Notes: generated from the letters alone by a model not told the origin. 64,000 nucleotides of DNA from an uncultured Haloferula sp. (GCA_965652295.1 CBFGTS010000017.1:32769-96768), one strand, 5' to 3'. Positions 13,129-30,723 are shown, counted from the first letter of the stretch. Made by a program: numbers and translations.

Positions 13129-13227
13129 TCGCCGGGCAGGGATAGGGCAGCCGGAGTGCTGTCGCAGTCGGGTTCGAGGTCCTTCAGGTGGTTTGTTCCC
13201 GCAGAGCCGTAGGGGGAGCTCATTCCT

Positions 13228-13869: not shown

Positions 13870-13997
13870 CCCCGGGCGATACCTCCCGAACGCCCGTCTA
13901 GCAAGGATTGGGGATTCTCCCTTGCACGGATTCGGCCGACCCGCTTTGTTGCCTCAGGACCGCCATGAGGGGCGGTTTCCAAAAATTTCCACCAATC

Positions 13998-15128: not shown

Positions 15129-15135
15129 CCCGACG

Positions 15136-15852
15136 GTGCGCGCCTTTGATCCGCTGGCGTTCCTGAAGCAGTTCGGTGACGAAGCGCGGCACCGAGGGCT
15201 CACCGCCCTGCGCCTCGCCGAAACCGCGGCCGGACCGGTGATGGCCTACACGCCCTCCTCCCCCGAGGGCGCGCGATATCTTTCCGCCGGGATCCATGGC
15301 GACGAACCCGCCGGCCCGCTTGCCGCACTTGAATTGCTGCGTGGCGGACAGCTCGACGACGGCTGGATCATCTGCCCCGCGCTCAACCCCACCGGCCTCG
15401 CCGCCGCCACCCGGGAGAACGCCGAGGGTGTCGATTTGAACCGCGATTACCTCCGCCTCGAAACCGCCGAGATCCGTGCCCACGCTGCCTGGTTGGAATC
15501 GATGGTCACCCCGCAGGCCTTCGTTTCCCTGCATGAGGACTGGGAATGCAGCGGGTTCTATTTTTACGAGATCAACCTTGGCGAAGACCGCCCGGAGCGG
15601 GCCCAAGCGATCCTCGATGCCGTCACTCCGTGCTTCCCGCCCGAGCCGGAAGCCAGCATCGACGACCACGACACCCGCGAGCCCGGCTGGATTTATCATG
15701 GTGCCGAGGCCGATCTGCCCCACGACTGGCCGGAAGCCATCTACCTCGCCAAACGCGGCTGCCCGATCTCCTTCACTTTCGAAACGCCGAGTTCGAAAGA
15801 ACTCACGAAGCGCATCGCCGCCCACGTCGCCGCCTTTAAGGCGGCGATGTAG
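15136..15852 (+). CDS. M14-family metallopeptidase / succinylglutamate desuccinylase-like protein
   Basis: SAGIHGDEPAG, RENAEGVDLNRDY, SLHEDWE and FETPS motifs. GTG start assumed. Confidence 0.82.
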   Translation: MRAFDPLAFLKQFGDEARHRGLTALRLAETAAGPVMAYTPSSPEGARYLSAGIHGDEPAGPLAALELLRGGQLDDGWIICPALNPTGLAAATRENAEGVDLNRDYLRLETAEIRAHAAWLESMVTPQAFVSLHEDWECSGFYFYEINLGEDRPERAQAILDAVTPCFPPEPEASIDDHDTREPGWIYHGAEADLPHDWPEAIYLAKRGCPISFTFETPSSKELTKRIAAHVAAFKAAM

Positions 15853-15927
15853 GAGGCGGGACGCCTCCGTCCCACAACCGGTGACGCCCGCTGCCACCCT
15901 CGCAGGACGAGGGCGTCCCGCCTCCTA
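15850..15927. repeat. REP-like inverted doublet
   Basis: Perfect 16-bp inverted repeat taggaggcgggacgcc (15850-15865) / ggcgtcccgcctccta (15912-15927). Confidence 0.8.
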
Positions 15928-15967
15928 TTTGATCGAAGCGCCGCGACCGAGTCGTAGCATGGGTCAC

Positions 15968-18157
15968 ATGAAGTGGCTGCTGCCTTTTGCCCTCGTCGCC
16001 ATCGCGACTGCGGAACCGGTCGATGAGTTCATCTCCGCCGCCGCTTCGGAGCACGGTGCCTTCGGCGAAAAGGCGGCCCGTTTTCTGGTGGAGCACATGC
16101 CGGAGAAAGATCGCGACACTCTCAGCGCGGATTTCCTGATCGAGAACCTCGATCTTGCACTGAAGGCTCGCGCGGTTTTCCCGTGGGCCCGGGATGTGCC
16201 GGAAGATCTCTTCCTTAACGACGTGCTTCCCTACGCGGTGTTTGATGAAGCGCGCGACCCGTGGCGGGCGGATTTTTTCGAGAAGTGCGCCCCTCTCGTG
16301 AAGGACACCGCGACCGCCAGCGAGGCGGCGCAGCTCCTCAACAGGGAGTTCTTCGACCTGATCGGAACCCACTACGATACCCGCCGTAGCAAAACCAACC
16401 AGAGCCCGAAGGAATCGATGGAGCAGGGCAAGGCGACCTGCACCGGGCTCTCGATCCTGTTTGTCGATGCCTGTCGCGCGGTCGGCATCCCGGCACGAGC
16501 GGTCGGCACGCCGATGTGGTCCAATGGCCGCGGCAACCACACCTGGGTCGAGATCTGGGACGAGGGTTGGCGCTTCACCGGTGCGGACGAATACGACGAG
16601 GCCGGGCTGAACCGAGGGTGGTTCACCGCCGATGCCGCGCAGGCCAAAGCCGACGACTCCGAACACGCGATCTATGCAACGAGCTGGCGGCGCGATGGCA
16701 TCCATTTCCCCATGGTATGGTCGCCGGGCTCCAAGACCGTCGCCGCGGTCAACGTCACTCATCGCTATGCCAAGAATACCGACGTCCGCCCGCAGCTCGG
16801 CGTGCGCCTGTTCAGTGACGGCGAACGCATGGCGGGGAAAGGCTGGCTGACAAGCGCGAACGGCCGGCGGTTGGCGGAGTTCACGACCAAGGCCGGAACC
16901 ACCGATCTGAACGACATGCCGCGGCTCGCCGTGACGCCCGGTCAAAGCTATCGCTTGTCCTTCGATGATCACGGCGAAACCCCGCCTTTCATCGCGGCAG
17001 CAGGCGAGAACACGCATGACGCCCGGCTCGCCGAGCTGACGCAGCCACCCGCGGCGGTCCTCGCGCTCGCCGCCGACCCCCTGGCCGACCCGTCGTTGTC
17101 CGCCGCGGATGCCGAACGCGTCATTTCCCTGCTCTCGGAGATCGAGCTGGAGAAAAGTCGCGCGGCGCGCGCCGCGGAGTTGGAGAAACGCGGGATCTCC
17201 CTCGATGGCACGACGTTGCGCTGGCTGGAAAAGGACTTCGGCGAGGCCGAGTCAGGCGGTCGCAGCCTGTGGATCTCCATGCACGGCGGCGGCGGCGCAC
17301 CGACGGAGGTGAACGACCAGCAGTGGCGGAACCAGATCGATCTCTACGAACCGGAGGAAGGCATTTACGTCGCCCCGCGGGCGCCGACGGATACCTGGAA
17401 CCTGTGGCATCAGGACCACATCGATCCGCTCTTTTCGCGACTCATCGAGAGCATGATCGCGCTGCGCGGCGTGCATCCGAACAAGGTCTATTTGATGGGG
17501 TACTCCGCCGGCGGTGACGGCGTGTGGCAGCTCGCCCCGCGGATGGCGGACCGTTTCGCCGCGGCGGCGATGATGGCGGGCCACCCGAACGAGGCTTCGC
17601 TGCTGCCGCTGCGGAACCTGCCTTTTGCGATCTTCATGGGTGGCGAGGATGCGGCTTACGACCGGAACAAGATCGCCGCGGAACGGGTCGCCGAGCTCGG
17701 TCGTTTGCGAGCCTCCGATCCGCAGGGTTATGTTCACCTCGCCCGCATCTATGAAGGCCTCGGGCATTGGATGGACCGGCGAGATGCCGAGGCGCTGCCA
17801 TGGATGGCCAAGTTCGAACGCGACCCGTGGCCGCGGAAGATCGTCTGGGTGCAGGACGACGTCACCCACCGCCGCTTCTACTGGCTGCAACTCCCTGGCA
17901 ACTACGCGCCGCAGGCCGGTGAAAGGATCGACGCCTCCGTGGACGGCCAGACCATTCATCTCTCCGAAAGCACGCCGCCGGGGACGGTGCTTCTCCTTCA
18001 CGACGACCTGTTCGATCTCGACCGTCCGGTGCGGATCGAATGGCGCGGCCGGACCTTCGAGCGGAAACCCAAGCGTCACGCGGATGTCATCCGCCGGGCC
18101 CTCGCTTCGCGGCTCGACCCGCCTTCGTGCCCGACGGCGGAGGTCACCGTCGAGTAG
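15968..18157 (+). CDS. exported transglutaminase-like domain plus alpha/beta-hydrolase fusion protein
   Basis: ATCTGLSI...GIPAR...NHTWVE (Cys/His triad), then HGGG and GYSAGG nucleophile elbow with GLGHW. Confidence 0.8.
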   Translation: MKWLLPFALVAIATAEPVDEFISAAASEHGAFGEKAARFLVEHMPEKDRDTLSADFLIENLDLALKARAVFPWARDVPEDLFLNDVLPYAVFDEARDPWRADFFEKCAPLVKDTATASEAAQLLNREFFDLIGTHYDTRRSKTNQSPKESMEQGKATCTGLSILFVDACRAVGIPARAVGTPMWSNGRGNHTWVEIWDEGWRFTGADEYDEAGLNRGWFTADAAQAKADDSEHAIYATSWRRDGIHFPMVWSPGSKTVAAVNVTHRYAKNTDVRPQLGVRLFSDGERMAGKGWLTSANGRRLAEFTTKAGTTDLNDMPRLAVTPGQSYRLSFDDHGETPPFIAAAGENTHDARLAELTQPPAAVLALAADPLADPSLSAADAERVISLLSEIELEKSRAARAAELEKRGISLDGTTLRWLEKDFGEAESGGRSLWISMHGGGGAPTEVNDQQWRNQIDLYEPEEGIYVAPRAPTDTWNLWHQDHIDPLFSRLIESMIALRGVHPNKVYLMGYSAGGDGVWQLAPRMADRFAAAAMMAGHPNEASLLPLRNLPFAIFMGGEDAAYDRNKIAAERVAELGRLRASDPQGYVHLARIYEGLGHWMDRRDAEALPWMAKFERDPWPRKIVWVQDDVTHRRFYWLQLPGNYAPQAGERIDASVDGQTIHLSESTPPGTVLLLHDDLFDLDRPVRIEWRGRTFERKPKRHADVIRRALASRLDPPSCPTAEVTVE

Positions 18158-18160
18158 CCC

Positions 18161-20110
18161 TCAGCAGAACTTCGCGTGGAGGATGTGGAGGCCGAGGAGG
18201 TGGTTGAGGAGGGCGTCCTTGCGGACGAGTGAAGTGGGGTCGCGGTCGGCGTCGTATTCCTTGAGGAAACCCTCCACCGCATCGGCGGAGAGGATGCCGC
18301 AGCGATTGACGGCGTCGCGGTTGAGGAAGGCGTCGATGAGTTCGCGAACCTTGGCCTTCTTCTTCTCGTCGGTGTGCGCGGGCGGGGCCATGAAGGCGAA
18401 CTTCTCGCGCTTGTAGAGGATCTCGGGAAGGACGCCGCAAACGGCCTCGCGGAGGACGTATTTCTCGATGTTGCCCTTGATGCGGTAATGCGGCGGCACC
18501 TTGAAGGCTGCCTCCGCGAGGTGGTGGTCGAGGAAGGCGGGGCGGCTTTCCATCGAGTTCGCCATGTCAACGCGGTCGCCGCCCCAGTTGAGGATCTGGC
18601 CTTCGAGCTGACACTTGGCCCAGGTGTACTGCGCGCGGTCGAGCGGGTGCCGGCCTTCCATCATCGAGTTGTCGATGCGTGAGGCGATTTCCTCGATGGG
18701 ATCGTAGTCCTTCAGATGCTCGGCCACATCGGGATCGAGCAGCGGGCGGGCGAGGTCGAGGGTCTCCATCCAAGGCTGAAGCCAGGACGGCGTGAAGCCG
18801 CACATGGTGTCCCACGCGGGGTGGTGGCGGACGTTTTCGGAGAGGATCGCGCCCTTGAAGAGCTTGTTGGTTTTCTCCAATGCCTCGGCGTATTCGGCGC
18901 GGATGTGCTCGGGCTCGTGGCTGATGCCGTGGAGGAACATGTCGCGCTTGAAGCCGGGGTAGCCGGCGAAAATCTCGTCGGAGCCCTCGCCGGTAACGAC
19001 GCAGCGGTAACCGCATTCCCAGACGCGCTTGGACATCAGATTCTTCGCCACGCCGAGGGTGTTGTAGAAGGTGCGCTCGGCGTGCCAGACGGTGTCGATG
19101 TAGTTCTCGCCGTAGAGATCGTCGGCGGCCAGGGTGATCATTTCCTGGTCGGCGTTCATCGACTCCGCCATCTCGCGGGCGATACTAGACTCGTCGTAGT
19201 CGTCGTTGTCGAAGGCGATGGTGAAGGCCTTGACCGGCGATTGCATGGCGCCGGTGGCGAGGCCGAGGATGCAGCAGGAATCGATGCCGCCGCTGAGGTA
19301 GCAGCCGACCGGGACGTCGGCCTCAAGCCGGAGGACCACGGCGCGGGTGAGCTCCTCGCGGATCTTCTCGACGTGGTATTCCTCGTTCTCGGGCTGGTCG
19401 TGGCCGCCTTCTTCGGGGAAATCGAGGTCCCAGTATTTGATCTTCTCGATTGAAAGGCGGTCGCCGTTTTTCCGCACGCGGAGCAGGTGGCCGGGCGCGA
19501 GCGACTCGATGTTTTTGAACGCGCTCATGCCGGGCGCGATGGTCTGCATGAGCTGGTGCAGCGCGGCCTTTTCGTCGAGTTCGGCGGGGATCTCCGGGTG
19601 GGCGAGGAGGGCCTTGACCTCGGAACCCCAGTGGATGGTGTGGCCGTCCTGAACGTGGATGAAGAGCGGGCGGATACCCCAACGGTCGCGAACGAGGAGC
19701 AACTCGTCGTTCTCCTGATCATAGAGCGCGAAGGCGAACTCGCCGCGGAGGTGCTTGAGGAAATCGAGGCCGTGTTTGCGGTAGAGGCCGAGCGCGATCT
19801 CGGAGTCCGACTTGGTGCGGAACCGCTGGCCCTCGGCCATGAGGACGGAGCGGTGGAACTTGAAGTCGTAGAACTCGCCGTTGACGGTGGAAACGAAGCG
19901 GTCGTCGTACGAGCGGATCGGCTGGCAGCCGCCTTCGAGGTCGTTGATGGAGAGCCGAGTGTGCCCGAAGGCGATCCCACGTTCGGGCCGCAGCCAGGTG
20001 GTTTGCGCGTCGGGTCCACGGTGAAGGATGGCCTGGAGCTGATCGTGAAGGATCGGCTCACGGGCGTCGGTGAGAGGTCGGGCGGAAAAGCTGCCGGTAA
20101 TGCCACACAT
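18161..20110 (-). CDS. asnB: asparagine synthase (glutamine-hydrolysing) family amidotransferase
   Basis: MCGITG N-terminal Cys, HTRLSI, NGEFY, LSGGIDS, GEGSDE and ESRPAFLDH motifs. Confidence 0.9.
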   Translation of the reverse strand: MCGITGSFSARPLTDAREPILHDQLQAILHRGPDAQTTWLRPERGIAFGHTRLSINDLEGGCQPIRSYDDRFVSTVNGEFYDFKFHRSVLMAEGQRFRTKSDSEIALGLYRKHGLDFLKHLRGEFAFALYDQENDELLLVRDRWGIRPLFIHVQDGHTIHWGSEVKALLAHPEIPAELDEKAALHQLMQTIAPGMSAFKNIESLAPGHLLRVRKNGDRLSIEKIKYWDLDFPEEGGHDQPENEEYHVEKIREELTRAVVLRLEADVPVGCYLSGGIDSCCILGLATGAMQSPVKAFTIAFDNDDYDESSIAREMAESMNADQEMITLAADDLYGENYIDTVWHAERTFYNTLGVAKNLMSKRVWECGYRCVVTGEGSDEIFAGYPGFKRDMFLHGISHEPEHIRAEYAEALEKTNKLFKGAILSENVRHHPAWDTMCGFTPSWLQPWMETLDLARPLLDPDVAEHLKDYDPIEEIASRIDNSMMEGRHPLDRAQYTWAKCQLEGQILNWGGDRVDMANSMESRPAFLDHHLAEAAFKVPPHYRIKGNIEKYVLREAVCGVLPEILYKREKFAFMAPPAHTDEKKKAKVRELIDAFLNRDAVNRCGILSADAVEGFLKEYDADRDPTSLVRKDALLNHLLGLHILHAKFC

Positions 20111-20126
20111 GGTTTTGGAAGGAGAG

Positions 20127-20155
20127 ATAGGTCGTATAAGTCCTATGGGACCTAT
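20127..20155. repeat. 9-mer degenerate tandem repeat / palindrome
   Basis: ataggtcgt ataagtcct atgggacct at. The ends ataggtc and gacctat are complementary. Confidence 0.6.
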
Positions 20156-20157
20156 TT

Positions 20158-21243
20158 CTAGGAGCCCGCGAATTCAGGAAGACGGTCAAGTCGGCCGAGC
20201 ACCGCGAGCAGCAGCGCCTGGCGGACGAAGACGGCCCCGTGAGCCTGGCTGAAGTAGAGGTTGTGCGGGGTTTTGTCCAAGGAGGTGTCCAGCTCATCAA
20301 GGCGGGCGAGCGGGTGGAGGATCACGGCTTCCTGCTTCAGCGGGCTGTCAGCGTCGAGCTTGTAGCGGGCGTCGAGCGCCTTGTAGGAGTCCCCGAGGAA
20401 GGCGATCGAGTTCATGTAAATCACATCGAGACGCGGTAGGCTTTCGCGGATGTCGTTGGTGACCTCGTATTCGATGTTGGCGCGGTTGAGGCTCTCGGTG
20501 ACGTCCTTGCCGAAGGGGTCGGCCATTTCCGAAATGACGGTGACCTTCTCGATGTGTTCGTGGAAAAGCAGCGCCATGAGCAGGAAGGATTTCACCGCGC
20601 GCATCGACCCGGGCGTGCCGAGGATGCCGAGCTGGAGTTTCTGGTCGCCGGTCTCGAAGGGTGCGGCGAGGCGGGGCTTCCATTTCAGCAGCGCATACCA
20701 GTCGGCCAGCGCCTGGGTCGGGTGCTCGCCGGAGCCGTTGCCGGCGTTGATGAGTGGGACGCGGAGGTTCTCGAGCATCTGCTTCGGCGCGTCGGTCTCG
20801 GTGTGACGCATGACGACGCAGTCGCAGTAGGCGTTGAACATTTCGCCGATGTCCTGGAGGGACTCGCCCTTCTTCGCGCCGGTCACGCCGCCATCGGGGA
20901 TGGAAATGATCTTCCCGGCCAGGCGGTGGACGGCGCTCTCGAAGCTGGTGCGGGTGCGGGTGGAGGCTTCGAAGAAAGCGGTGGTGACGATTTTTCCATC
21001 GAGCGGATGGTAGGGCCAGATCTCGACCTGCTCGAGGAAGGCGGCGAGCTTGCACAGCTCGGCCACCTGCTGGAATGAGAACTGGCGGGCGTAGAGGACG
21101 TTCTGGCCGGAAAGTTCGGCCAGGACGTTGAGATCGGGCGCGGCGGACGCAAAGAGGTTCCTCGGCTCGGGCCGGGTGGCGTCGGAGTCGCGCGGCGGCT
21201 TGAGATAGGGAGTCGCCGGGTTCGGCGTGAATGCTTCGCTCAT
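20158..21243 (-). CDS. aspartate/ornithine carbamoyltransferase family protein (atypical, ATCase-like)
   Basis: FFEASTRTRTSFE, KKGESLQD, VMRH, EHPTQALAD and HPLAR motifs. Start at MSEAF. Confidence 0.88.
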   Translation of the reverse strand: MSEAFTPNPATPYLKPPRDSDATRPEPRNLFASAAPDLNVLAELSGQNVLYARQFSFQQVAELCKLAAFLEQVEIWPYHPLDGKIVTTAFFEASTRTRTSFESAVHRLAGKIISIPDGGVTGAKKGESLQDIGEMFNAYCDCVVMRHTETDAPKQMLENLRVPLINAGNGSGEHPTQALADWYALLKWKPRLAAPFETGDQKLQLGILGTPGSMRAVKSFLLMALLFHEHIEKVTVISEMADPFGKDVTESLNRANIEYEVTNDIRESLPRLDVIYMNSIAFLGDSYKALDARYKLDADSPLKQEAVILHPLARLDELDTSLDKTPHNLYFSQAHGAVFVRQALLLAVLGRLDRLPEFAGS

Positions 21244-21389
21244 GGGTGAATCGAGGTTGGAGGGAGTTACCAAAGTTCGCCGCGCTTCCAGTCGCGGACC
21301 AGCAGCACGATCAAGGCAAGCGCGCCGAGACCGGTCCACACGAGGCCGAGGTAGACGAGGGCTTGGAGAAAGGTGGAGGAGAACATGGC

Positions 21390-22811
21390 TTAGTGACCGA
21401 TGGCATCGAGGGGCTTGGCTCCGATCCAGCGCGCGGCGAGGGTGAACACCATCGAGACCGCGCCGCCAACGAGTGCGCCGGTGTAGGTTTGGAGTTCAAA
21501 ATACGCCCAAAGCCCGCTGGCACAACCGGCGATGATTCCGGCGATGACGAGCGGGGCATTGAGTCGTTTCCAGAAGAGCCCGGCGATCACCGGCCAGATG
21601 AGGCTGGCGACGAGCGCGCCGGCGCTGAAGAGGACCTGATCGATGTTCCAGCCGCTGAGGGCGAGGCTCCAGGCGACCACGGAAACTACGATGATCGCCG
21701 TAGCGGCGACGGGGCGGAATTTCTGCGGATCGAGGTGCTGCTTGAAGACGCCCTCGTAGATGTCGCGGACCAGCAGGTCGGAGGTGGCGGCGAGGAGTGA
21801 ATCGATCGAGGAAGCCATCGAGCAGAACAGCACGACGAGGATGATGACGCCGGCGAACTGGCCCAGCCCGGCGAGGCCGAGGACGTGCTCGGCGACCTGC
21901 GGGCCGACTTTTCCGGGATCGGTTACGTTCACGCCCAGCGGCCCCGCGCAGAGGGCGATGAAGCCGGCGGCGATCGGAATCGGGAACCACAGCACGCCGG
22001 AGAGGAAGAACGCCTTCGGCGCGACCTTTTCGCGCATGGCGAACGCGCGCGACCACCAGACGTTGTTGTGCATGACCTCGCCGAAGCCGAAGAGCATGTT
22101 GTTGAAAATGGCCAGCAGGGCGGCGGGCATCATCACGTCGAGCAGCGCCGGCTGCTCCGCCATGAGGTGGCGGTGGACGGTGGGGACATCGACGTGATTG
22201 AGCACTTCGTAGCCGATGAAGACGATGCCGATCAGGATGATCAGGCTCTGGATGAAATCGGTGCCGATGACCGCGTAGAGCCCGCCGAAGAGCGTGTAGA
22301 GCACGCAGACGACGAGGATCAACGTCATGCCGTGGACGTATTCGATGCCGCCGAGAGCCTCCAGCAGCTTGCCGCCGGCGATGGCCATGGTGACCAGCCA
22401 GGTGATGGAATACACCAGCGTAATGACGAGAAATACGCCCCATCCCGTACGTCCGTAGCGCAGCCGGAAGAAATCGCCCGCGGTGACGCCCTCGGGGAGC
22501 AGCTTGCGGATGCGGAAGGCGAGCGGCGCGAAGAGCATCAACCCGAACGAGGCCGAGGCATAGGCGAGCATCCCCCAGACGCCTTTCTCGTAGGCGAGCA
22601 GCGGCGCGACCATGGTGGTGTTCGAGGTCACCCACGTAGCCATGGCGGTGGCGGTGCCGAGGGAAAGCCCGACGTTGCGTCCGGCGAGCATGAAACCCTC
22701 GCTGGTCTTCGCTTTCCTGCCCCACCACATGCCGAGCGCGACCCACAACACGCCCAGCCCGATGACGATGGCCCAGGCGGTGGAGTGGGAAATGGAAGCG
22801 GCGAGGATCAT
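21390..22811 (-). CDS. sodium:solute symporter family transporter
   Basis: FMLAGRNVG, YTLFGGLYAVIGTDFIQ and SMASSIDSLL motifs; polytopic membrane protein. Confidence 0.88.
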   Translation of the reverse strand: MILAASISHSTAWAIVIGLGVLWVALGMWWGRKAKTSEGFMLAGRNVGLSLGTATAMATWVTSNTTMVAPLLAYEKGVWGMLAYASASFGLMLFAPLAFRIRKLLPEGVTAGDFFRLRYGRTGWGVFLVITLVYSITWLVTMAIAGGKLLEALGGIEYVHGMTLILVVCVLYTLFGGLYAVIGTDFIQSLIILIGIVFIGYEVLNHVDVPTVHRHLMAEQPALLDVMMPAALLAIFNNMLFGFGEVMHNNVWWSRAFAMREKVAPKAFFLSGVLWFPIPIAAGFIALCAGPLGVNVTDPGKVGPQVAEHVLGLAGLGQFAGVIILVVLFCSMASSIDSLLAATSDLLVRDIYEGVFKQHLDPQKFRPVAATAIIVVSVVAWSLALSGWNIDQVLFSAGALVASLIWPVIAGLFWKRLNAPLVIAGIIAGCASGLWAYFELQTYTGALVGGAVSMVFTLAARWIGAKPLDAIGH

Positions 22812-23362
22812 CGCGATTTGGCAAACCCGTGGAGGATGGCTCCGATGGTGAGGACGGCGACAAACGCACCGGTGCCGAGCAACAGGTGGAGCTGCCCGCG
22901 GTGCATGTATTCGACCTTGATCCGGAGCGGCTCCGACCACTCGGTGGCTCCTGTTTCGCGGACGCGGAAATGGTAGGTCCCTTCGGCGAGGCCGGTCAGC
23001 ACGCTCTCGGTGTCAGGACCGCGGTAGCGCAGGTGCGCGTCGGAGAAATCGGCGTCGGTGCTTTGTTGCAGCTCGTATTCGGGTCCTTCGCCCCGCCAGA
23101 CGAGGTCGATGGTGCCGTCGTCGCTGACTCCGGCTCTCGGGCCGAGATCGCTTTCCAGCAAAGGCGCGGCCATCGCGGAGCCGACCACTCCACCCACGAC
23201 GAGGCCGGCGAAAACCGACCTGCAGAAATGGATGTTGGGCGAAGGAAGAAAGATGGTTCCGTCGGGTTGGATGGCGGCTGTCCGGCAACGGCGGTTGCTG
23301 AAAAACGGCGCGGCTACCCTTGGGTCTAACCGCCGCGATGGCAAATTCTTTCTGGAATCCAT
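22808..23362 (-). CDS. small membrane-anchored protein with FN3-like domain (start uncertain)
   Basis: LVWRG..YELQQS...GLAEGTYHFRVR...WSEP followed by a C-terminal TM segment. Its stop overlaps the SSS start. Confidence 0.65.
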   Translation of the reverse strand: MDSRKNLPSRRLDPRVAAPFFSNRRCRTAAIQPDGTIFLPSPNIHFCRSVFAGLVVGGVVGSAMAAPLLESDLGPRAGVSDDGTIDLVWRGEGPEYELQQSTDADFSDAHLRYRGPDTESVLTGLAEGTYHFRVRETGATEWSEPLRIKVEYMHRGQLHLLLGTGAFVAVLTIGAILHGFAKSR

Positions 23363-23400
23363 GCCGTCGCACGCGTTGGGTGGACCTCATGGTCGAGACG

Positions 23401-24645
23401 ATGCCCGAAATATCCATCGAAAGGCTCGGCGGCGATCTACGGGAACTCTCGGAGATCGGACGCGCGGAGGATGGCGGCGTGTACCGCATGGCTTTCACCG
23501 AGGCCGACATGCGCGGCAAGGCATGGCTGGAGCAGCGCATGCAGGACGCGGGCCTGGAAACCTCGCGCGATGGCGCGTGCAACGTGATCGGCCGGCTCGC
23601 CGGAAAAAACGCGGAGGCCCCCGCGCTGGTGATCGGCTCCCACATCGACACGGTGCCGTGCGCCGGGATCCTCGATGGCACCCTGGGCGTGCTGACCGGG
23701 CTCGAATGCCTGCGCGCGGTGAAGGAAAGCGGCCGCGTGCCGGAGCGCGACATCGAGCTGATCGCCTTCTCCGATGAGGAAGGCCGCTTCGGCGGCATGC
23801 TCGGCTCGCAGGCATTCGCCGGGCAGGTCACGCCGGATGTCATCCACACCGCGGTCGATCCCGCGGGCGAAAAAATGGCCGATGCGATGGCCGCGCACGG
23901 CCTCGATCCCTGGCTCGCGTTGCAGGCGCGGCGCGATCCGCAGACGATCGCCGCCTACCTGGAGCTGCACATCGAGCAGGGCCCGGTGCTTTCCGGAAAC
24001 GACGAGCAGATCGGCGTGGTCGAGGCGATCACCGGGCTCTTCAAGTGGACCGTGACGCTTTCCGGCGAGCCGAACCACGCCGGCACCACGCCCATGCCGA
24101 TGCGGCGCGACGCGTTCATGGGCGTGGCCGATTTCGCCCACGAGATCCCGCGCCTGCTCGACGAGAACGGCTCCGAACGCTCGCGGGCGACGATCGGCCG
24201 CGTGGATCTCACGCCCGGCTCCGCCAACACGGTGCCGGGCGAGGCCCGGTTCACCCTCGACGTGCGCGATACGGACGAGACGGTGATGCACGAACTCGCC
24301 GACTCCGCACGCAAGGCGCTCAACGCGATCGCCCGACGCCGCGGGCTGCGTTTCAACTACGAGGTCGATAGCTGGATCAATCCGGTCGATTGCGATGCCG
24401 CGCTTTCCGACATGGTTGAAGCCGCGGCGAAAGACGCGGGCACCCGTTTCCGCCGCATGATCTCGGGTGCCGCCCACGATGCGCAGATCGTCGCCTCGCT
24501 CTGTCCCGTAGGCATGATTTTCGTCCCGTCGCTGGAGGGAAAATCCCACTCGCCCGCGGAATGGACCGCCTGGGACGACATCGAGGCCGGGGCCCGCGTC
24601 ATGCTCGGCACGATCGAACGCTTCGCCTTCCCATCCGCTTCCTGA
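23401..24645 (+). CDS. M20 Zn-dependent hydrolase, N-carbamoyl-amino-acid / allantoate amidohydrolase family
   Basis: GSHIDTV, DEEGRF, ELHIEQGP, NHAGTTPM, SGAAHDA and SHSPAE motifs. Confidence 0.92.
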   Translation: MPEISIERLGGDLRELSEIGRAEDGGVYRMAFTEADMRGKAWLEQRMQDAGLETSRDGACNVIGRLAGKNAEAPALVIGSHIDTVPCAGILDGTLGVLTGLECLRAVKESGRVPERDIELIAFSDEEGRFGGMLGSQAFAGQVTPDVIHTAVDPAGEKMADAMAAHGLDPWLALQARRDPQTIAAYLELHIEQGPVLSGNDEQIGVVEAITGLFKWTVTLSGEPNHAGTTPMPMRRDAFMGVADFAHEIPRLLDENGSERSRATIGRVDLTPGSANTVPGEARFTLDVRDTDETVMHELADSARKALNAIARRRGLRFNYEVDSWINPVDCDAALSDMVEAAAKDAGTRFRRMISGAAHDAQIVASLCPVGMIFVPSLEGKSHSPAEWTAWDDIEAGARVMLGTIERFAFPSAS

Positions 24646-24649
24646 ACCC

Positions 24650-25393
24650 ATGTCCGTCACCTCCATCACCGACCCCCTCCGCCAGCAATATCGCGAAGCC
24701 TTTGTCACCAATCCGCGCCGCGCGGAGCACCTCGCCGATGGCAAGGTGGCGCTGTTGTGCATCGACGTGCAGTACCTCGACGCGGCCGATGGCTACGGGC
24801 TCTTCGCCGATCCCGACACGAGCGGCGTGCCGGAGGAGGGACGGAAGTACTACTTCGAGCGTTTGGAAACGCTGGTGCTGCCCGGCATGCGGCTGCTGCA
24901 GGATGCGTTCCGCGGCGAGAAGCTGGAGGTCATCCACATTCGGATCTGCGCGCTGACCCACGACGGCCGGGACCGGAGCGCCGGGCACCGACGGCTCAAC
25001 CTGCTGGCCGCTCCCGGCAGCAAGGAGGCGGAGTTTCTCGAGCAGGTCGCGCCGGAGGGCGATGAGATCGTGATCAACAAAACCGCCAGCGGCGTATTCT
25101 CCAGCACCAACATCCATTACGTGCTCGGCAACCTCGGCATCCGCTCGCTCTATCTCTGCGGCGTCTACACCAACGAGTGCGTCGAGACCGCCGCACGCGA
25201 CGCCTGCGACCTCGGGTATTTCGTGACGATCGTCGAGGATGCCTGCGCGACGGTGACCGAGCGCCTGCACGAGGCCTCGCTGGCGACGCTGCGCGACCGC
25301 TACGCGCGGATCAATTCCGTGCGCGATGTGCTGAGGGAACTCGACGTCCTGCGCGACAGCTCCACGGCCGCAATCCTCTCGCGGACCGAATAG
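24650..25393 (+). CDS. isochorismatase-family cysteine hydrolase (amidase-like)
   Basis: LLCIDVQ (Asp), INKTASGVF (Lys) and GVYTNECVETAARDA (Cys) triad. Confidence 0.9.
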   Translation: MSVTSITDPLRQQYREAFVTNPRRAEHLADGKVALLCIDVQYLDAADGYGLFADPDTSGVPEEGRKYYFERLETLVLPGMRLLQDAFRGEKLEVIHIRICALTHDGRDRSAGHRRLNLLAAPGSKEAEFLEQVAPEGDEIVINKTASGVFSSTNIHYVLGNLGIRSLYLCGVYTNECVETAARDACDLGYFVTIVEDACATVTERLHEASLATLRDRYARINSVRDVLRELDVLRDSSTAAILSRTE

Positions 25394-25493
25394 GAGCCGG
25401 GCGCTCCTGCGGGCGACGAGGGTGTCCGGCTTTTTTGATCACAGAACAGCGGAGGGGAGGACGTCCGACTGGATCATCCGGAATTCAGTTTTT

Positions 25494-25611
25494 CTCTGTG
25501 ACCTCCGTTTTCCTCGGTGCCTCCGTGTTGAAAAAAGGCGTTCCCGTTCCTGGAGCAAACCCACCGAGCCCCCGGACTGCCCAGGTTGCGGGGCGAGGGC
25601 GTTCTACTTCC
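25494..25611. repeat. 9-mer tandem repeat plus degenerate REP copy downstream of tRNA-Glu
   Basis: ctctgtgac ctccgtttt cctcggtgc ctccgtgtt (25494-25529). 25585-25611 matches 43100-43126 at 22/27 positions. Confidence 0.55.
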
Positions 25612-25651
25612 AAAAAAATCCCGCCGGAAGGGCGGGAACTCAAGGAGGAAG

Positions 25652-25726
25652 TGGCAACCCGTAGGGGAATCGAACCCCTATTGCCAGAATGAAAATCTGG
25701 AGTCCTAACCGTTAGACGAACGGGTC
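25652..25726 (-). tRNA. tRNA-Glu (TTC)
   Basis: The reverse complement GACCCGTTCGTCTAACGGTTAGGACTCCAGATTTTCATTCTGGCAATAGGGGTTCGATTCCCCTACGGGTTGCCA folds as a cloverleaf with anticodon TTC and an encoded CCA. Confidence 0.97.
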
Positions 25727-25955
25727 TCACTTCGCGAAGCTTGCCGGAGCAGGCTTCCTTCGCCCACCGGGGTGGGCTGGGCCGGAAAGCTAGTCAGAGC
25801 CCTCCGACTGACAAGCACATTTTTGGGAAAAAAATTCCGCATCCATTCATGGGTTGGATGAAACGTTCCCTGAGTGGTGGATGAATGGCGGCTTGCCAGC
25901 GGGGACATCGTCCCTACCCTGCGCGCCCTGTCCGACAAGCACTTACGGATTGCCC

Positions 25956-27935
25956 ATGAATACAGACATCCTCTCCCAAGCCGCCGCCCAGGCGCGTGGC
26001 CTCGCCATTGATGCCGTCCACGCGTGTTCCTCCGGCCACCTCGGCCTGCCGCTCGGCTGCGCCGAGATCGGTGCCGTCCTCTGGGGTGCCGGCGGCCTGC
26101 GCTACAATCCGGAAGCTCCGAAGTGGCTGAACCGCGACCGTTTCATCCTTTCCGCCGGCCACGGCTCGATGTTCCTCTACAGCTGGCTGCACATGACCGG
26201 GTACGACGTGCCGATGGAAAACGTGCGGAACTTCCGCCAGCTCGGCTCGCACACCCCCGGCCACCCGGAGTCGTTTGAAACCGCCGGCGTCGAGGCCACC
26301 ACCGGCCCGCTCGGCCAGGGCGTGGGCAACGCCGTGGGCTTCGCCCTCTCCGGCAAGCGCGCCGCAGCCCGCTTCAACACCAAGGATCACACGATTTTCG
26401 ACCACCACGTCATCGCCCTCCACGGCGACGGCTGCCTTCAGGAAGGCGTGGCCAAGGAGGCGATCGCTTTCGCCGGCCACAACAAGCTGGATAACCTGAT
26501 CCTCATCTACGATTCGAACGACGTCACCCTCGACGCCATGGCCGAGGTGACCCAGAGCGAGGACGCCGCCGGCTACTTCGTTTCCCAGGGTTGGGACGTC
26601 GTCACCATCGACGGCCACGATTTCACCGCCATCCACAAGGCGCTGGAAAACGCGAAGAACGACGACAACGGCAAGCCGAAGGTGATCATCGCCAAAACCA
26701 CCATCGGCAAGGGTATCCCGGAAGTCGAAGGCACCTCCAAGGGCCACGGTGAGGGCGGCGCGAATTTCTCCGACGCCGCACGCAAGGGCCTCGGCCTGCC
26801 GGAAGAGCACTTCTATGTCTCCGACGAGGTGCGCGATTACCTCAAGCAGGTCGCCGACAACCACAAGCACGCCTTCCTTTCCTGGCAGAGCGACTACGAG
26901 GCCTGGGCGCAGGCGAATCCCGAGCTGGCCGTCGAGCTTCGCGCCGGCGTGCAGGGGGAGATCCCGAGCGACCTCGTCGAGCGCATCCCGGCCTTTGCCG
27001 AGGATTACAAGGACGCGACCCGCGGCGCGGGCGGCGTGGTGATCCAGTCGGTGGCCAAGGAAGTGCCCCACTTCATCACCGGCTCGGCCGATCTCTACGG
27101 CTCGACCAAGAACTACATCAAGGATGCCGGCGACTTCGGTCCGGAGAACCCGACCGGCCGCAACATCTGGTTCGGCATCCGCGAGCACGCCATGGGAGCC
27201 ATCTGCAATGGCATCGCCTACGACGGCATCTTCCGCGGTTCCGGCGCGACCTTCCTGGTCTTCGCCGACTACCTCCGCCCCTCCATCCGTCTGGCCGCGC
27301 TTTCCCGCCTGCCCGTCACCTACATCTTCACCCACGATTCCGTGGGCGTCGGTGAGGACGGCCCGACCCACCAGCCGGTGGAAACCGTGAGCGGCCTGCG
27401 CGTGATCCCGCAGCTCGACGTGATCCGCCCGGCCGACGCCGAGGAAACCGCCGGCGCCTTCGCTGCGGCGATGCTCCGCACCGATGGTCCCACGGCCCTC
27501 ATCCTGACCCGCCAGGGCGTGCCGCCGATGAGCCAGCTGTCCGTTTCCGAGCGCCGCAACGGCGTGATCCGCGGCGGCTATGTCGTCCGTAAGGAGAAGG
27601 GCGAACTCACCACCATCCTCCTCGCCACCGGTTCCGAGGTGCAATACTGCCTCAAGGCCGCCGAGGAACTCGGCGACGGCGTGCGCGTCGTCTCGATGCC
27701 CTGCTTCGAGCGCTTCGACCGCCAGGACGCCGCCTACCGCGAGGCGGTCCTGCCGAAGTCCTGCACCCGGCGCGTCGCCATCGAGGCCGGCGTCACCGGC
27801 CTGTGGTGGAAATACGTCGGCACCGAAGGCAAGGTCGTCGGCATCGACCGCTTCGGCCTCAGCGCCCCCGGCAACACGGTCTTCAAAGAACTCGGCATCA
27901 CCGTCGAGTCGGTCGTTGCCGCCGCCAAAGCCTGA
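25956..27935 (+). CDS. tkt: transketolase
   Basis: [33 protein letters not shown] and GEDGPTHQP motifs. Confidence 0.96.
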
Positions 27936-27937
27936 TC

Positions 27938-27959
27938 GTGGCGGCGGATTTCATCCGCC
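27938..27959 (+). repeat. single REP-like unit (GTGG plus hairpin)
   Basis: gtggc ggcggat ttc atccgcc immediately after the tkt stop. Confidence 0.45.
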
Positions 27960-27982
27960 AAGCCCACCGCTTCAATATTCAT

Positions 27983-28016
27983 GCCGCCCCGGGAAACCGG
28001 GGCGGCGTATTTTTTG
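27983..28016 (+). terminator. intrinsic terminator after tkt
   Basis: gccgccccgg-gaaa-ccggggcggc followed by gtattttttg. Confidence 0.8.
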
Positions 28017-28037
28017 ATGCCCGCCGCTCCTTTCCGG

Positions 28038-29006
28038 CTACGGCGTGAAGAGCACCTTGCCATGACGGTCCGGTGCGTCGAGACAGGCGAGCGCCTGCTT
28101 GAATTCCCCGAGCCGGTGCGTCGAGTCGATCGGCACGTCCAGTTTCCCTTCCGCCATCCATTTCGCGAGCAGACCATATGTCCGGTGCACCTCAGGCAAC
28201 CGCGCGTTCTCGAGCCACTTCGTCATCCAGAACCCGTGCAGGCTGATGTCCTTGAAAATGAGGAGACCGTTCGGCACCTTGAGCGGCTTGCGACCCATTG
28301 CGCCGTAGGTCACGTGGCTGCCGCCGACCGCCAGCAGGTTCATCAGGCGCAGCGCGCTGTCGCCCCCCACGGCATTCAGCGCGAGCACCGGGCGGTCCTT
28401 GCCGAGCACCTCTTTGGCCGCATCCACCGCGTCGCCGTTGTCCAGGAAAACGTGATCCGCGCCGATCGCCTTCAGCTCGCCAACCAACTCCTCGCGACGT
28501 ACGAGGTTCACCGTACGCCAGCCGAGCTGCTTGCAGAGCTGGATCACACATCGTCCCACCCCGGAATTCGCCGCGTTCTGGACCACCCAGCCGCCGGGAG
28601 GCACGGCCACGAAGCCATGAAGCATGCGGAAGGCCGTGGCGGGATTGACCTTGAGCATCGCCGCCTGGAGCGGATCGATGCCCACCGGCAGCTTGAAAAG
28701 CAGATCCCCATGCACGTCCGCCTGCTCCGCCCACGACGAGGCACGTGTCAGGAAAATGACGTGGTCGCCGGGCACGTAAGCTGCATGCCGGCTTTCCAGC
28801 ACCTCCGCGCAGCCTTCGATTCCCGGCGTCGCTGGCAGCTCCGGCATCACGCCGTAGGTGCCCTCGATGAAATTCAGATCCGCCGGGTTGACCGGCGCGG
28901 CGAGGACCTTCACGCGCACATGGTTTTCAGCCAGGGTGCCGGCTTCATCGTCCACGCATTCCAGAACCTCCACAGGGACACCACACGATCGGAAGGCAAG
29001 CTTCAT
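28038..29006 (-). CDS. 2-enoyl thioester reductase (MECR-like, MDR family)
   Basis: APVNPADLNFIEGTYG, VNPATAFRML, QNAANSGVG and TYGAM motifs. Confidence 0.88.
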   Translation of the reverse strand: MKLAFRSCGVPVEVLECVDDEAGTLAENHVRVKVLAAPVNPADLNFIEGTYGVMPELPATPGIEGCAEVLESRHAAYVPGDHVIFLTRASSWAEQADVHGDLLFKLPVGIDPLQAAMLKVNPATAFRMLHGFVAVPPGGWVVQNAANSGVGRCVIQLCKQLGWRTVNLVRREELVGELKAIGADHVFLDNGDAVDAAKEVLGKDRPVLALNAVGGDSALRLMNLLAVGGSHVTYGAMGRKPLKVPNGLLIFKDISLHGFWMTKWLENARLPEVHRTYGLLAKWMAEGKLDVPIDSTHRLGEFKQALACLDAPDRHGKVLFTP

Positions 29007-29086
29007 GCCCGTAGGTCGGCCTTTTCCGCGATGGGGTCAAGGGGGCGCCGCTCCATGCACGATCATGCGGAAGATTCCGCAAAATG

Positions 29087-30448: not shown

Positions 30449-30723
30449 GGGTGCGGGTGCGGAAGGTGGACGGCCGGAGCCGCCGGGAAGGAGGGGAACA
30501 GCGGGCGCAGTCTAGGTTTCAGGCGGGGAAGCGTCAATGGAGGCGACGCCGTGCCCGACCTTGCACCCGCGCAGCCGGGACCATCCGGGCTTTTCCCACA
30601 TCATGGAGCAGCGGAGAAAACGGAGGGGACAACCGGCAGCCGCGGCCCGAGGGCGAATAACGCTCGCCGCAGACGCGTGTCCGGGTCAAATCGGCCGCAG
30701 CCCGATCTTTTCCAATCCACCTG

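What the first reader, a model, noticed from the sequence alone, without database searches (positions are those of the whole stretch)
18161..25393. Candidate pathway for synthesis, uptake and recycling of an N-carbamoyl amino-acid amide (possible osmolyte)
Seen: a divergent six-gene cluster. Minus strand: FN3-like protein, SSS transporter, atypical carbamoyltransferase, AsnB-type amidotransferase. Plus strand: M20 N-carbamoyl-amino-acid hydrolase and isochorismatase-type amidase. Known: an AsnB paralogue (AsnO) amidates the osmolyte NAGGN, and N-alpha-carbamoyl-L-glutamine-1-amide is a described compatible solute of Ectothiorhodospira marismortui; I know of no genes assigned to it. Inference: carbamoyl transfer plus ATP-dependent amidation would build such a compound, and the two hydrolases would remove those same two groups.
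Basis: partly seen in the sequence, partly recalled or inferred. Interest (0 to 1): 0.8.

Follow-up and report, generated by a model that had tools for sequence, protein, structure and literature searches.

The report
Candidate carbamoyl-amino-acid-amide osmolyte gene cluster
A conserved gene set pairs a new kind of carbamoyltransferase with an amide-forming enzyme, two matching hydrolases and a transporter, and it is the best candidate so far for making the orphan salt-protection compound carbamoyl-glutamine amide.

Summary
The six genes are real and sit at the stated coordinates. The carbamoyltransferase belongs to a distinct clade derived from aspartate carbamoyltransferases. It keeps every carbamoyl-phosphate and alpha-carboxylate residue but has lost the two residues that hold aspartate's side chain (238 of 238 members). 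The genome has separate pyrB and argF genes. The AsnB-type amidotransferase follows the transferase in 12 of 12 loci from five phyla, and two same-genus genomes lack both genes.

In Verrucomicrobiota the transferase and the amidase occur in the same 5 of 401 genomes. In the order that holds Ectothiorhodospira, where N-carbamoyl-glutamine amide was described, the transferase and the AsnB are each in 49 of 55 genomes. That includes a genome whose transferase is identical to one named E. mobilis. There the operon reads MarR, M20, amidase, transferase, AsnB, and sits between sucrose synthase and fructokinase genes.

This layout parallels the known NAGGN osmolyte operon. No paper in the searched library assigns genes to the compound.

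The reading is well supported by comparative genomics but remains biochemically untested. The amino acid, the product and any salt response are inferred. The hydrolases are often co-transcribed with the synthetic genes, and the compound has not been reported from most organisms that carry the cluster.

The parts
18161..20110 (-). AsnB-type glutamine-dependent amidotransferase (649 aa). Proposed to amidate the alpha-carboxylate of the N-carbamoyl amino acid.
   Evidence: Pfam Asn_synthase 5.9e-77, GATase_7 2.2e-35. TIGR01536 377.2 bits, above the cut-off of 267.1. NAGGN AsnO model TIGR03104 253.5 bits, below 570.1. Cys2 is kept in 24 of 24 orthologues, and G274, G275 and S278 of the SGGIDS PP-loop in 24 of 24. 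It is the only full-length PF00733 match in the genome. It lies directly downstream of the transferase in 12 of 12 loci.
20158..21243 (-). Atypical carbamoyltransferase (361 aa; the ORF extends to 21339), a member of a distinct clade derived from ATCases.
   Evidence: OTCace_N and OTCace domains. Below the cut-offs of all 15 NCBIfam models hit; the best, TIGR00670, scores 177.1 against 236.95. Best solved relative is the P. abyssi ATCase 1ML4, 8.1e-45. STRTR, K125, R146, HPTQ and R215 are kept in 238 of 238 members. TRxQ is replaced by N-(S/A)-I-A, and HPLPR by HPLAR. The clade has 100/100 support on a branch of length 1.55.
21390..22811 (-). Sodium:solute symporter (473 aa; the ORF extends to 22940). 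Proposed importer or re-uptake system for the compound.
   Evidence: PF00474 1.5e-28. All 8 NCBIfam hits are below their cut-offs (PanF 94.1 against 328; PutP 92.6 against 515.5). It is present in 10 of 13 loci from other phyla.
22808..23362 (-). Small membrane protein with an N-terminal hydrophobic segment, an FN3-like domain and a C-terminal membrane helix. The start codon is uncertain. Proposed accessory subunit of the symporter.
   Evidence: No Pfam family at E<=0.001. AlphaFold2 pLDDT 86.5, seven strands plus helix 95-123. Foldseek top hits are FN3 domains 2DB8 (2.9e-4) and 1X4X (6e-4). It is found in 14 of 14 loci that have the symporter and its upstream DNA, and in none of the 10 full-length loci without the symporter.
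23389..24645 (+). M20 N-carbamoyl-L-amino-acid amidohydrolase-type enzyme (418 aa; the ORF starts at 23320). Proposed to remove the carbamoyl group.
   Evidence: TIGR01879 387.7 bits (above 204). NF006771 516.7 bits (above 399). ErtE N-carbamyl-L-glutamate amidohydrolase model 392.3 bits (below 520). Best solved relative is the L-carbamoylase 3N5F, 5.4e-83.
24650..25393 (+). Isochorismatase-family cysteine hydrolase (247 aa). Proposed to hydrolyse the 1-carboxamide.
   Evidence: PF00857 3e-30. All 5 NCBIfam hits are below their cut-offs. Solved relatives include cysteine hydrolases, biuret hydrolase, RutB and N-carbamoylsarcosine amidase. D39, K144 and C177 are kept in 17 of 17 orthologues. 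In the phylum sample it occurs in the same 5 of 401 genomes as the transferase.
25410..25436 (+). Terminator-like hairpin with a T-run just after the amidase stop codon.
   Evidence: The number of such sites in the region (7) is not above the shuffled expectation (5.9), so this is weak.

Best explanation
The cluster makes, takes up and recycles a small neutral N-alpha-carbamoyl amino-acid amide. [quoted passage not shown]

Proposed steps, all inferred from enzyme families and conserved residues:
1. The atypical transferase moves the carbamoyl group of carbamoyl phosphate onto the alpha-amino group of an amino acid that has a free alpha-carboxylate and an uncharged side chain, probably glutamine.
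2. The AsnB-type enzyme activates that alpha-carboxylate with ATP and amidates it with ammonia from glutamine. This matches what AsnO does to N-acetylglutaminylglutamine.
3. For turnover, the cysteine hydrolase first removes the 1-amide.
4. The M20 carbamoylase, whose family needs a free carboxylate, then removes the carbamoyl group and returns the amino acid.
5. Where present, the symporter with its FN3-like single-pass partner imports or recaptures the compound.

What is shown: the gene families, the catalytic residues and the conserved linkage. What is inferred: the substrate, the product and the physiological role.
For: Chemistry. The two synthetic families add exactly the two groups that CGA carries, and the two hydrolase families remove those same groups.

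Transferase site. The residues for carbamoyl phosphate and the alpha-carboxylate are invariant in 238 of 238 members. The residues matching ATCase R229 and Q231 are S/A and A, which are small and uncharged.

Not housekeeping.
- pyrB-like and argF-like genes lie elsewhere in the genome.
- Three other carrier genomes also have three OTCace_N genes each.
- Two same-genus genomes lack the transferase, the AsnB and the amidase together.

Linkage.
- All six genes lie together in 4 of 4 other Verrucomicrobiota carriers, in two gene orders.
- The transferase and AsnB are adjacent in 12 of 12 loci from five phyla.
- They are adjacent in 45 of the 48 Ectothiorhodospirales genomes that have both.
- The transferase and the amidase occur in the same 5 of 401 phylum genomes.

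Producer lineage. CGA was described from Ectothiorhodospira marismortui, which one review equates with E. mobilis (PMC1224877 passage). Orthologues are named from E. mobilis and five other species of the family. Genome G409 encodes a transferase identical to the E. mobilis protein P0400.

Osmolyte context.
- In G409 the operon MarR, M20, amidase, transferase, AsnB lies between a sucrose synthase (PF00862, 515 bits) and a PfkB kinase.
- In L020, sucrose-phosphate synthase/phosphatase, PfkB and an amylosucrase-like gene follow directly.

Precedent. The NAGGN operon combines an AsnB-type amidotransferase, an N-capping enzyme and a peptidase under a MarR repressor, and it is osmotically induced (PMC8070244 passages).

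Other osmolyte systems. The window's genome shows no ectoine synthase above cut-off, no OtsA and no BCCT transporter.

A catabolic role is unlikely. No carbamate kinase was found, and 8 of 9 Ectothiorhodospirales loci have no transporter, so the substrate is probably made inside the cell.
Against: - There is no biochemical, metabolite or expression evidence for any member of the cluster.
- CGA is reported only from E. marismortui in the texts seen, yet the cluster is near-universal in its order and also occurs in Thioalkalivibrio and Nitrosococcus. The papers read for those organisms name betaine, ectoine or sucrose, not CGA.
- A salt-shift RNA-seq paper on T. versutus does not mention these genes in its main text. 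Its full gene table could not be read.
- In many loci the hydrolases are co-transcribed with the synthetic genes. Unless they are regulated after transcription, this risks a futile cycle.
- The window protein is only about 47% identical to the Ectothiorhodospira one and sits in the other subclade of the family, so the two may use different amino acids.
- The AsnB passes the generic asparagine-synthase model TIGR01536.
- DNA near-identical to the window was found in runs labelled rhizosphere, soil and sludge, not plainly saline ones.
- In Actinosynnema the transferase-AsnB pair sits among nucleoside-type genes with none of the other four genes.
Confidence: 0.5

Rival explanations
1. The chemistry is the same but the product differs. 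For example, the AsnB makes asparagine from aspartate and the transferase then makes N-carbamoyl-L-asparagine. Alternatively the substrate is glutamate or another neutral amino acid. The role may be nitrogen storage rather than osmoprotection.
For: The AsnB passes the generic asparagine-synthase model TIGR01536 (377.2 bits against 267.1) and is the only AsnB in a genome that has an AsnRS and no AsnA. Losing R229 and Q231 would also suit asparagine's amide side chain. Nothing in the data identifies the side chain.
Against: Two same-genus genomes have neither an AsnB nor the transferase, so asparagine supply does not depend on this gene in the genus; GatB is present in the window's own genome. 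N-carbamoyl-asparagine would leave the isochorismatase-type amidase without a clear substrate, and I know of no report of it as a solute. A glutaminase lies next to the cluster in L019, which hints at glutamine.
Confidence: 0.2
2. The cluster is a catabolic or salvage route for an imported ureido-amide compound. The symporter brings it in, the hydrolases or a phosphorolytic transferase break it down, and nitrogen or carbamoyl phosphate is recovered.
For: A transporter and two hydrolases suit a degradative route. Catabolic transcarbamylases are known from established knowledge, for example in the arginine deiminase pathway. In the window the hydrolases form their own divergent unit.
Against: An ATP-consuming glutamine amidotransferase has no place in catabolism, yet it is the gene most tightly linked to the transferase. 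No carbamate kinase was found in the genome. The transporter is absent from 8 of 9 Ectothiorhodospirales loci. In L016 and L025 the symporter accompanies the synthetic pair with no hydrolase within 10 kb. The amidase never occurs without the transferase in the 401 phylum genomes sampled.
Confidence: 0.1
3. The transferase-AsnB pair supplies a building block for a secondary metabolite, such as a nucleoside-type or peptide antibiotic, and the remaining genes provide self-protection or recycling.
For: In Actinosynnema pretiosum (L023) the pair is followed by a Cupin_8/JmjC-like gene, an APH-HAD fusion, a cytidine-deaminase-like gene and a nucleoside 2-deoxyribosyltransferase-like gene. No M20, amidase or symporter is present there.
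Against: This context was seen in 1 of 13 loci from the collection scan. No NRPS, PKS or tailoring genes were seen in the other loci examined. Near-universal presence in a whole order, at 70% identity or more, looks like core physiology.
Confidence: 0.07
4. The genes are ordinary paralogues of pyrB and asnB for pyrimidine and asparagine synthesis that merely lie beside unrelated hydrolases.
For: Public annotations call the transferase an aspartate carbamoyltransferase.
Against: The aspartate side-chain residues are lost in 238 of 238 members. The protein scores below every ATCase cut-off. A canonical pyrB-like gene is present elsewhere. Linkage of the genes is conserved across five phyla.
Confidence: 0.02

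Closest known systems
NAGGN (N-acetylglutaminylglutamine amide) system: asnO-ngg plus a peptidase, under the MarR-type repressor PA3458 in Pseudomonas aeruginosa (PMC8070244, passages read)
   Same: Both are built to make a neutral osmolyte from glutamine by capping the alpha-amino group and amidating the alpha-carboxylate with an AsnB-type, glutamine-dependent amidotransferase. Both carry a hydrolase gene in the same operon. Many versions of both have a MarR-type regulator.
   Different: Here the cap is a carbamoyl group added by an ATCase-derived transferase, not an acetyl group and peptide bond made by the GNAT/ligase Ngg. The AsnB scores below the AsnO model (253.5 bits against 570.1). The hydrolases are an M20 carbamoylase and an isochorismatase-type amidase rather than an aminopeptidase. 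A symporter with an FN3-like partner is often attached.
Aspartate carbamoyltransferase catalytic chain (PyrB)
   Same: Same fold and the same carbamoyl-phosphate site (STRTR, HPTQ, R105 and K84 equivalents). The alpha-carboxylate arginine (R167 equivalent) is kept. The best solved relatives are ATCases at about 1e-45. The E. coli residue numbers are recalled.
   Different: The R229 and Q231 equivalents are replaced by S/A and A. GDLKxGR becomes G(T/V)PxxMR, and HPLPR becomes HPLAR. The protein has an N-terminal extension of about 45 residues. It forms a separate clade with 100/100 support and is a third paralogue beside pyrB and argF.
N-carbamoyl-L-amino-acid amidohydrolases of family M20 (for example 3N5F; also the ErtE N-carbamyl-L-glutamate amidohydrolase model)
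   Same: The M20 protein passes the hydantoinase/carbamoylase family model and is closest to a solved L-carbamoylase.
   Different: It is below the ErtE equivalog cut-off (392.3 bits against 520). Its gene partners are not hydantoinases or ergothioneine genes but a carbamoyltransferase and an AsnB.
Ectoine systems: ectABC with the MarR-type EctR, doe degradation genes and TeaABC re-uptake.
   Same: The general logic matches: a nitrogen-containing osmolyte with dedicated synthesis, degradation and re-uptake functions, and a MarR-type regulator.
   Different: The enzyme families and chemistry are unrelated, and in ectoine systems the degradation genes usually lie apart from the synthesis genes.

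Membership tests
Aspartate carbamoyltransferase (PyrB) | Score above the curated equivalog cut-off (TIGR00670, NF002032) | tested here: not met
   177.1 bits against 236.95, and 172.7 against 263.
Aspartate carbamoyltransferase (PyrB) | Carbamoyl-phosphate site (STRTR, HPTQ, R105 and K84 equivalents) | tested here: met
   Invariant in 238 of 238 family members. The residue roles are recalled from E. coli ATCase.
Aspartate carbamoyltransferase (PyrB) | Aspartate beta-carboxylate ligands (R229 and Q231 equivalents in the TRxQ motif) | tested here: not met
   N-(S/A)-I-A replaces T-R-x-Q. R is never seen at position 279, nor Q at position 281, in 238 sequences.
Glutamine-hydrolysing asparagine synthase superfamily (AsnB type) | N-terminal Cys nucleophile, PP-loop SGGxDS, and the family model | tested here: met
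   Cys2 in 24 of 24 orthologues. G274, G275 and S278 in 24 of 24. TIGR01536 377.2 bits, above 267.1.
NAGGN amidotransferase AsnO (TIGR03104) | Score above the equivalog cut-off | tested here: not met
   253.5 bits against 570.1.
NAGGN system | Presence of the Ngg acetyltransferase/ligase beside the amidotransferase | tested here: not met
   No such gene lies among the six; the neighbour of the AsnB is the carbamoyltransferase. Ngg elsewhere in the genome was not searched.
M20 hydantoinase/carbamoylase family amidase (TIGR01879) | Score above the subfamily cut-off | tested here: met
   387.7 bits against 204. Also NF006771, 516.7 against 399.
Isochorismatase-like cysteine hydrolases | PF00857 domain and the Asp-Lys-Cys triad | tested here: met
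   PF00857 3e-30. D39, K144 and C177 in 17 of 17 orthologues. The identity of the triad is recalled.
RutB / biuret hydrolase / N-carbamoylsarcosine amidase equivalogs | Score above the equivalog cut-off | tested here: not met
   RutB 56.9 bits against 377.95. BiuH 56.2 against 370.
Sodium:solute symporter family | PF00474 domain; equivalog models for PutP and PanF | tested here: inconclusive
   PF00474 is met at 100.2 bits. PutP, PanF, ActP and the superfamily model TIGR00813 are all below their cut-offs, so it is a member of the superfamily with unknown substrate.
Fibronectin type III domain | Sequence family match, or the FN3 fold | tested here: inconclusive
   No Pfam match at E<=0.001. The predicted fold matches FN3 domains, but only 2 Foldseek hits reach E<=0.001.
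CGA biosynthetic pathway (no genes known) | Production of N-carbamoyl-glutamine amide by these enzymes | not testable with these tools
   This needs enzyme assays or metabolite analysis. Only presence in the producer genus could be shown.

The most novel reading that the evidence does not exclude
[quoted passage not shown] This nitrogen-rich solute, or a close analogue, would then be a widespread and overlooked osmolyte of marine and soda-lake bacteria from at least five phyla, not a curiosity of one purple sulfur bacterium. It would come with its own new class of transcarbamylase, a built-in recycling pair and a dedicated symporter that works with an FN3-like single-pass subunit.
Probability: 0.35. 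Interest if true: 0.8.

Novelty: new variant of a known kind. Interest (0 to 1): 0.72.

Why it matters
CGA was described more than thirty years ago (date recalled), and in the texts searched here no gene has been assigned to it. This cluster gives a concrete two-enzyme hypothesis that can be tested in E. coli within weeks.

If it holds, it would add three things:
- a new substrate class to the transcarbamylase family, whose members are now annotated wholesale as aspartate carbamoyltransferase;
- a second example, after NAGGN, of AsnB-type enzymes making osmolyte amides;
- a genomic marker for a nitrogen-costly osmolyte in marine Verrucomicrobiota, Planctomycetota and Gammaproteobacteria, which bears on nitrogen budgets and salt adaptation.

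The hundreds of close homologues in metagenomes suggest that the function is common.

Tried and rejected
- Expression data. No listed sequencing run that holds the stretch is on record as RNA.
- Symporter and FN3-like partner. The complex prediction could not be run.
- Earlier notes of this scan. Two look-ups gave nothing.
- Literature on gene assignment. Searches under eleven spellings of the compound's name, and with Ectothiorhodospira plus carbamoyl, found only reviews that name the compound.
- Literature on salt response. Searches for salt-response data on the orthologues in Thioalkalivibrio and Nitrosococcus found nothing relevant. The T. versutus RNA-seq paper does not mention the genes, and its supplement is not held. 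The papers on Spiribacter and Acidihalobacter had nothing on them.
- Synteny test for a simple insertion. The flanking genes are scattered in the two same-genus genomes, so no conclusion could be drawn beyond absence of the cluster DNA.
- Promoter and terminator scan. Site counts are not above chance.
- Housekeeping pyrB/asnB reading. Rejected on the residue and paralogue evidence.
- A beta-lactam-synthetase-like ring-closing role for the AsnB. Considered and set aside, because the N-terminal Cys nucleophile for glutamine hydrolysis is conserved in 24 of 24 orthologues.

Full report
**What is in the window.**

On the minus strand:
- A 649-aa AsnB-type amidotransferase, 18161-20110.
- An ATCase-like transferase. 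The ORF runs 20158-21339; the start at 21243 gives the 361-aa form that is identical to database protein P0001.
- A sodium:solute symporter. The ORF runs 21390-22940, with a likely start at 22811 that overlaps the stop of the next gene.
- A 184-aa ORF, 22808-23362.

On the plus strand:
- An M20 hydrolase, likely start 23389, ending at 24645.
- An isochorismatase-family protein, 24650-25393.

The small ORF has no Pfam family. A model built from 11 orthologues (pLDDT 86.5) shows seven strands followed by a membrane helix, and FN3 domains are its best structural matches. The flanking genes are unrelated housekeeping genes: citrate synthase, a transglutaminase-core/DLH fusion and transketolase.

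**The transferase is a new branch, not a pyrB.** It falls below the cut-offs of all 15 NCBIfam carbamoyltransferase models that it hits. Its closest solved relatives are ATCases at about 1e-45.

I aligned 238 close homologues, drawn from the two 120-row listings and kept if 330-420 aa long. Two of the 240 were dropped for length.
- STRTR, K125, R146, HPTQ and M214-R215 are invariant. By recalled E. coli numbering these form the carbamoyl-phosphate site and the alpha-carboxylate arginines.
- The TRxQ motif, which supplies R229 and Q231 to aspartate's beta-carboxylate, reads N-(S/A)-I-A in all 238, with A at the last position in 235 of 238.
- HPLPR reads HPLAR in 237 of 238.

In a maximum-likelihood tree of 43 proteins, the family forms a clade of 28 rows with 100/100 support on a branch of length 1.55, set apart from canonical ATCases. 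The tool warned that the genome's own pyrB and argF are long branches that may join falsely. That warning does not affect this clade.

The genome has two further OTCace_N genes. By motif inspection, not by a family search, one reads as argF (HCLP, next to an aminotransferase) and the other as pyrB (RVQMER, HPGP). Three other carrier genomes also have three such genes each.

**The AsnB belongs to the cluster, not to asparagine supply.**
- It is the only full-length PF00733 match in a genome that is 98% complete. The genome also has AsnRS and GatB and lacks AsnA.
- Two same-genus genomes, 98-99% complete, have no orthologue of the transferase and no real AsnB. One has a single 22-bit partial hit and the other has none.
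- The glutamine-hydrolysing Cys2 and the PP-loop are kept in 24 of 24 orthologues.
- It passes the generic asparagine-synthase model but not the E. coli-type AsnB model or the NAGGN AsnO model.

**Conserved linkage.**
- *Verrucomicrobiota.* In a sample of 401 genomes, the transferase has an orthologue in 5, counting the window's own genome. The isochorismatase-type amidase is found in exactly the same 5. In the four others all six genes lie together. Two have the divergent layout of the window. In the other two, M20 and the amidase follow the AsnB on the same strand.
It returned 13 family loci at 42% identity or more. They come from Verrucomicrobiota, a Novosphingobium, a Rubripirellula, several Gammaproteobacteria including Thioalkalivibrio, Pseudidiomarina and Pseudoalteromonas, an Actinosynnema, and a contig filed under Prochlorococcus.
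- *Within those 13 loci*: the AsnB lies directly downstream of the transferase in 12 of the 12 that hold downstream DNA. The symporter is present in 10 of 13, the M20 in 8 of 13 and the amidase in 4 of 13.
- *The FN3-like gene tracks the symporter.* It is in 14 of 14 loci that have the symporter and its upstream DNA: the window itself, 10 by tblastn and 3 by a profile built from the orthologues. It is in none of the 10 full-length loci without the symporter.

[quoted passage not shown] They list it as a candidate solute for relatives that lack betaine and ectoine genes (passages of PMC1224877 and PMC7824335).
- A search with the Thioalkalivibrio transferase found members that NCBI names from E. 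mobilis (three proteins), E. marina, E. shaposhnikovii, E. lacustris, E. magna, Ectothiorhodosinus mongolicus, Thiorhodospira sibirica, Thiohalobacter and Nitrosococcus oceani/watsonii.
- In the 55 genomes of the order that holds the Thioalkalivibrio genome, the transferase is in 49 and the AsnB in 49. Both are in 48, one alone in 2, and neither in 5.
- By my reading of the two coordinate tables, the two genes lie within about 420 bp of each other in 45 of the 48. In two genomes they are on different contigs, both at contig ends. In one (G457) they are 700 kb apart, with neither hydrolase nearby.
- G409 encodes a transferase identical to the E. mobilis protein P0400.
- Of nine loci fetched from this order, eight carry M20, amidase, transferase and AsnB on one strand. 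Seven of those are preceded by a MarR-type gene. Only one has the symporter and the FN3-like gene.

**Genomic company.**
- In G409 the operon lies between a sucrose synthase (PF00862, 515 bits) and a PfkB kinase. Similar hits flank seven and six of the nine loci respectively.
- In a Chromatiales genome (L020) the AsnB is followed directly by a sucrose-phosphate synthase/phosphatase fusion, a second phosphatase, PfkB and an amylosucrase-like gene, with a MarR gene upstream.
- Sucrose is named as a compatible solute of these bacteria in the papers read.
- The window's genome shows no ectoine synthase above cut-off, no OtsA and no BCCT transporter. Other osmolyte routes were not searched.

**Proposed mechanism.**
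1. The transferase keeps the alpha-carboxylate ligands, so it should act on the free amino acid and therefore act first.
2. The small uncharged residues that replace R229 and Q231 suggest a neutral side chain larger than aspartate's. Glutamine fits, but the data do not identify the side chain.
3. The AsnB would then amidate the alpha-carboxylate, as AsnO does for N-acetylglutaminylglutamine (PMC8070244).
4. For breakdown, the Asp-Lys-Cys hydrolase (triad kept in 17 of 17 orthologues) would remove the amide. Its solved relatives include biuret hydrolase and RutB.
5. The M20 enzyme would then remove the carbamoyl group. Its closest solved relative is an L-carbamoylase.

Every step is inferred. 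Hydrolase genes inside a synthetic operon have a precedent in the NAGGN operon, which carries an aminopeptidase and is repressed by a MarR-type protein until osmotic stress.

**Evidence against, and open points.**
- No member of the cluster has been assayed. No RNA data could be found for the window.
- The compound is reported from one species in the texts seen, whereas the cluster is near-universal in its order.
- The papers read on Thioalkalivibrio name betaine and sucrose only. The salt RNA-seq study does not mention these genes, and its supplement could not be read, so it may bear on this claim.
- The Verrucomicrobiota proteins are only about 47% identical to the Ectothiorhodospira ones and fall in the other subclade. 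Their substrate could differ.
- Near-identical DNA occurs in runs labelled rhizosphere, soil and sludge.
- In Actinosynnema the transferase-AsnB pair sits with nucleoside-type genes, so the pair may also serve other pathways.

**Prior knowledge and novelty.** Four full-text searches found only three papers that name the compound, and none assigns genes to it. They used eleven spellings of the compound's name, plus Ectothiorhodospira together with carbamoyl. The library lacks most subscription journals, so this is not proof of absence. All the enzyme families are known. What is new is the transferase clade, its fixed pairing with an AsnB, the mirrored hydrolase pair and the FN3-partnered symporter. 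I class it as a new variant of a known kind: an osmolyte cluster built on the NAGGN logic.

**Verdict.** My confidence is 0.5 that the cluster makes and recycles an N-carbamoyl amino-acid amide, and about 0.35 that the compound is CGA serving as an osmolyte.

Noticed in passing
L023:9830-17600 (Actinosynnema pretiosum): The transferase-AsnB pair occurs here without M20, amidase or symporter. It is followed by a Cupin_8/JmjC-like gene, an APH-HAD fusion, a cytidine-deaminase-like gene and a nucleoside 2-deoxyribosyltransferase-like gene. This may be a nucleoside-type biosynthetic cluster that uses the same two-enzyme module.
   Followed up: partly
proteins P0142, P0143, P0144, P0150, P0155, P0158, P0159, P0162: A subgroup nested inside the atypical transferase clade (100/100 support) has a degenerate STRTR motif (SRT-R or QCTGR) and has lost HPLAR. 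It may be non-catalytic or may carry out different chemistry. Its gene context was not examined.
   Followed up: no
L027:6061-6747: On the contig filed under Prochlorococcus, a DUF1028 (PF06267) gene follows the M20 gene where the isochorismatase-type amidase would be. This may be a non-homologous replacement.
   Followed up: no
L019:14351-17893: A 659-aa glutaminase (PF04960) and a second, shorter AsnB lie just downstream of the cluster in a gammaproteobacterial genome. This is a weak hint that glutamine is involved.
   Followed up: no
window 38945-39814 (-): A CdaA-type diadenylate cyclase (DAC plus CdaA_N domains) lies about 14 kb from the cluster. From recall, c-di-AMP is an osmoregulatory messenger in many bacteria. 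No link to the cluster was tested.
   Followed up: no
window 20158-21243 (-), first ~45 residues: The transferase carries an N-terminal extension ahead of the ATCase core, partly conserved across the Verrucomicrobiota members (PP.DS.A.RPEP). Its role is unknown.
   Followed up: no
window 13000-31000 versus G348, G081, G327: The cluster sits in a different genomic neighbourhood in the one same-family carrier (G348). The flanking genes are scattered in the two same-genus non-carriers. This fits an accessory module that moves as a unit.
   Followed up: partly
window 15476-18157 (+) and 31667-35626 (-): Two large unusual proteins lie near the cluster. One is an 893-aa fusion of a transglutaminase core with a dienelactone-hydrolase-like domain. 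The other is a 1319-aa protein with CotH, lamin-tail and Fn3-associated domains.
   Followed up: no
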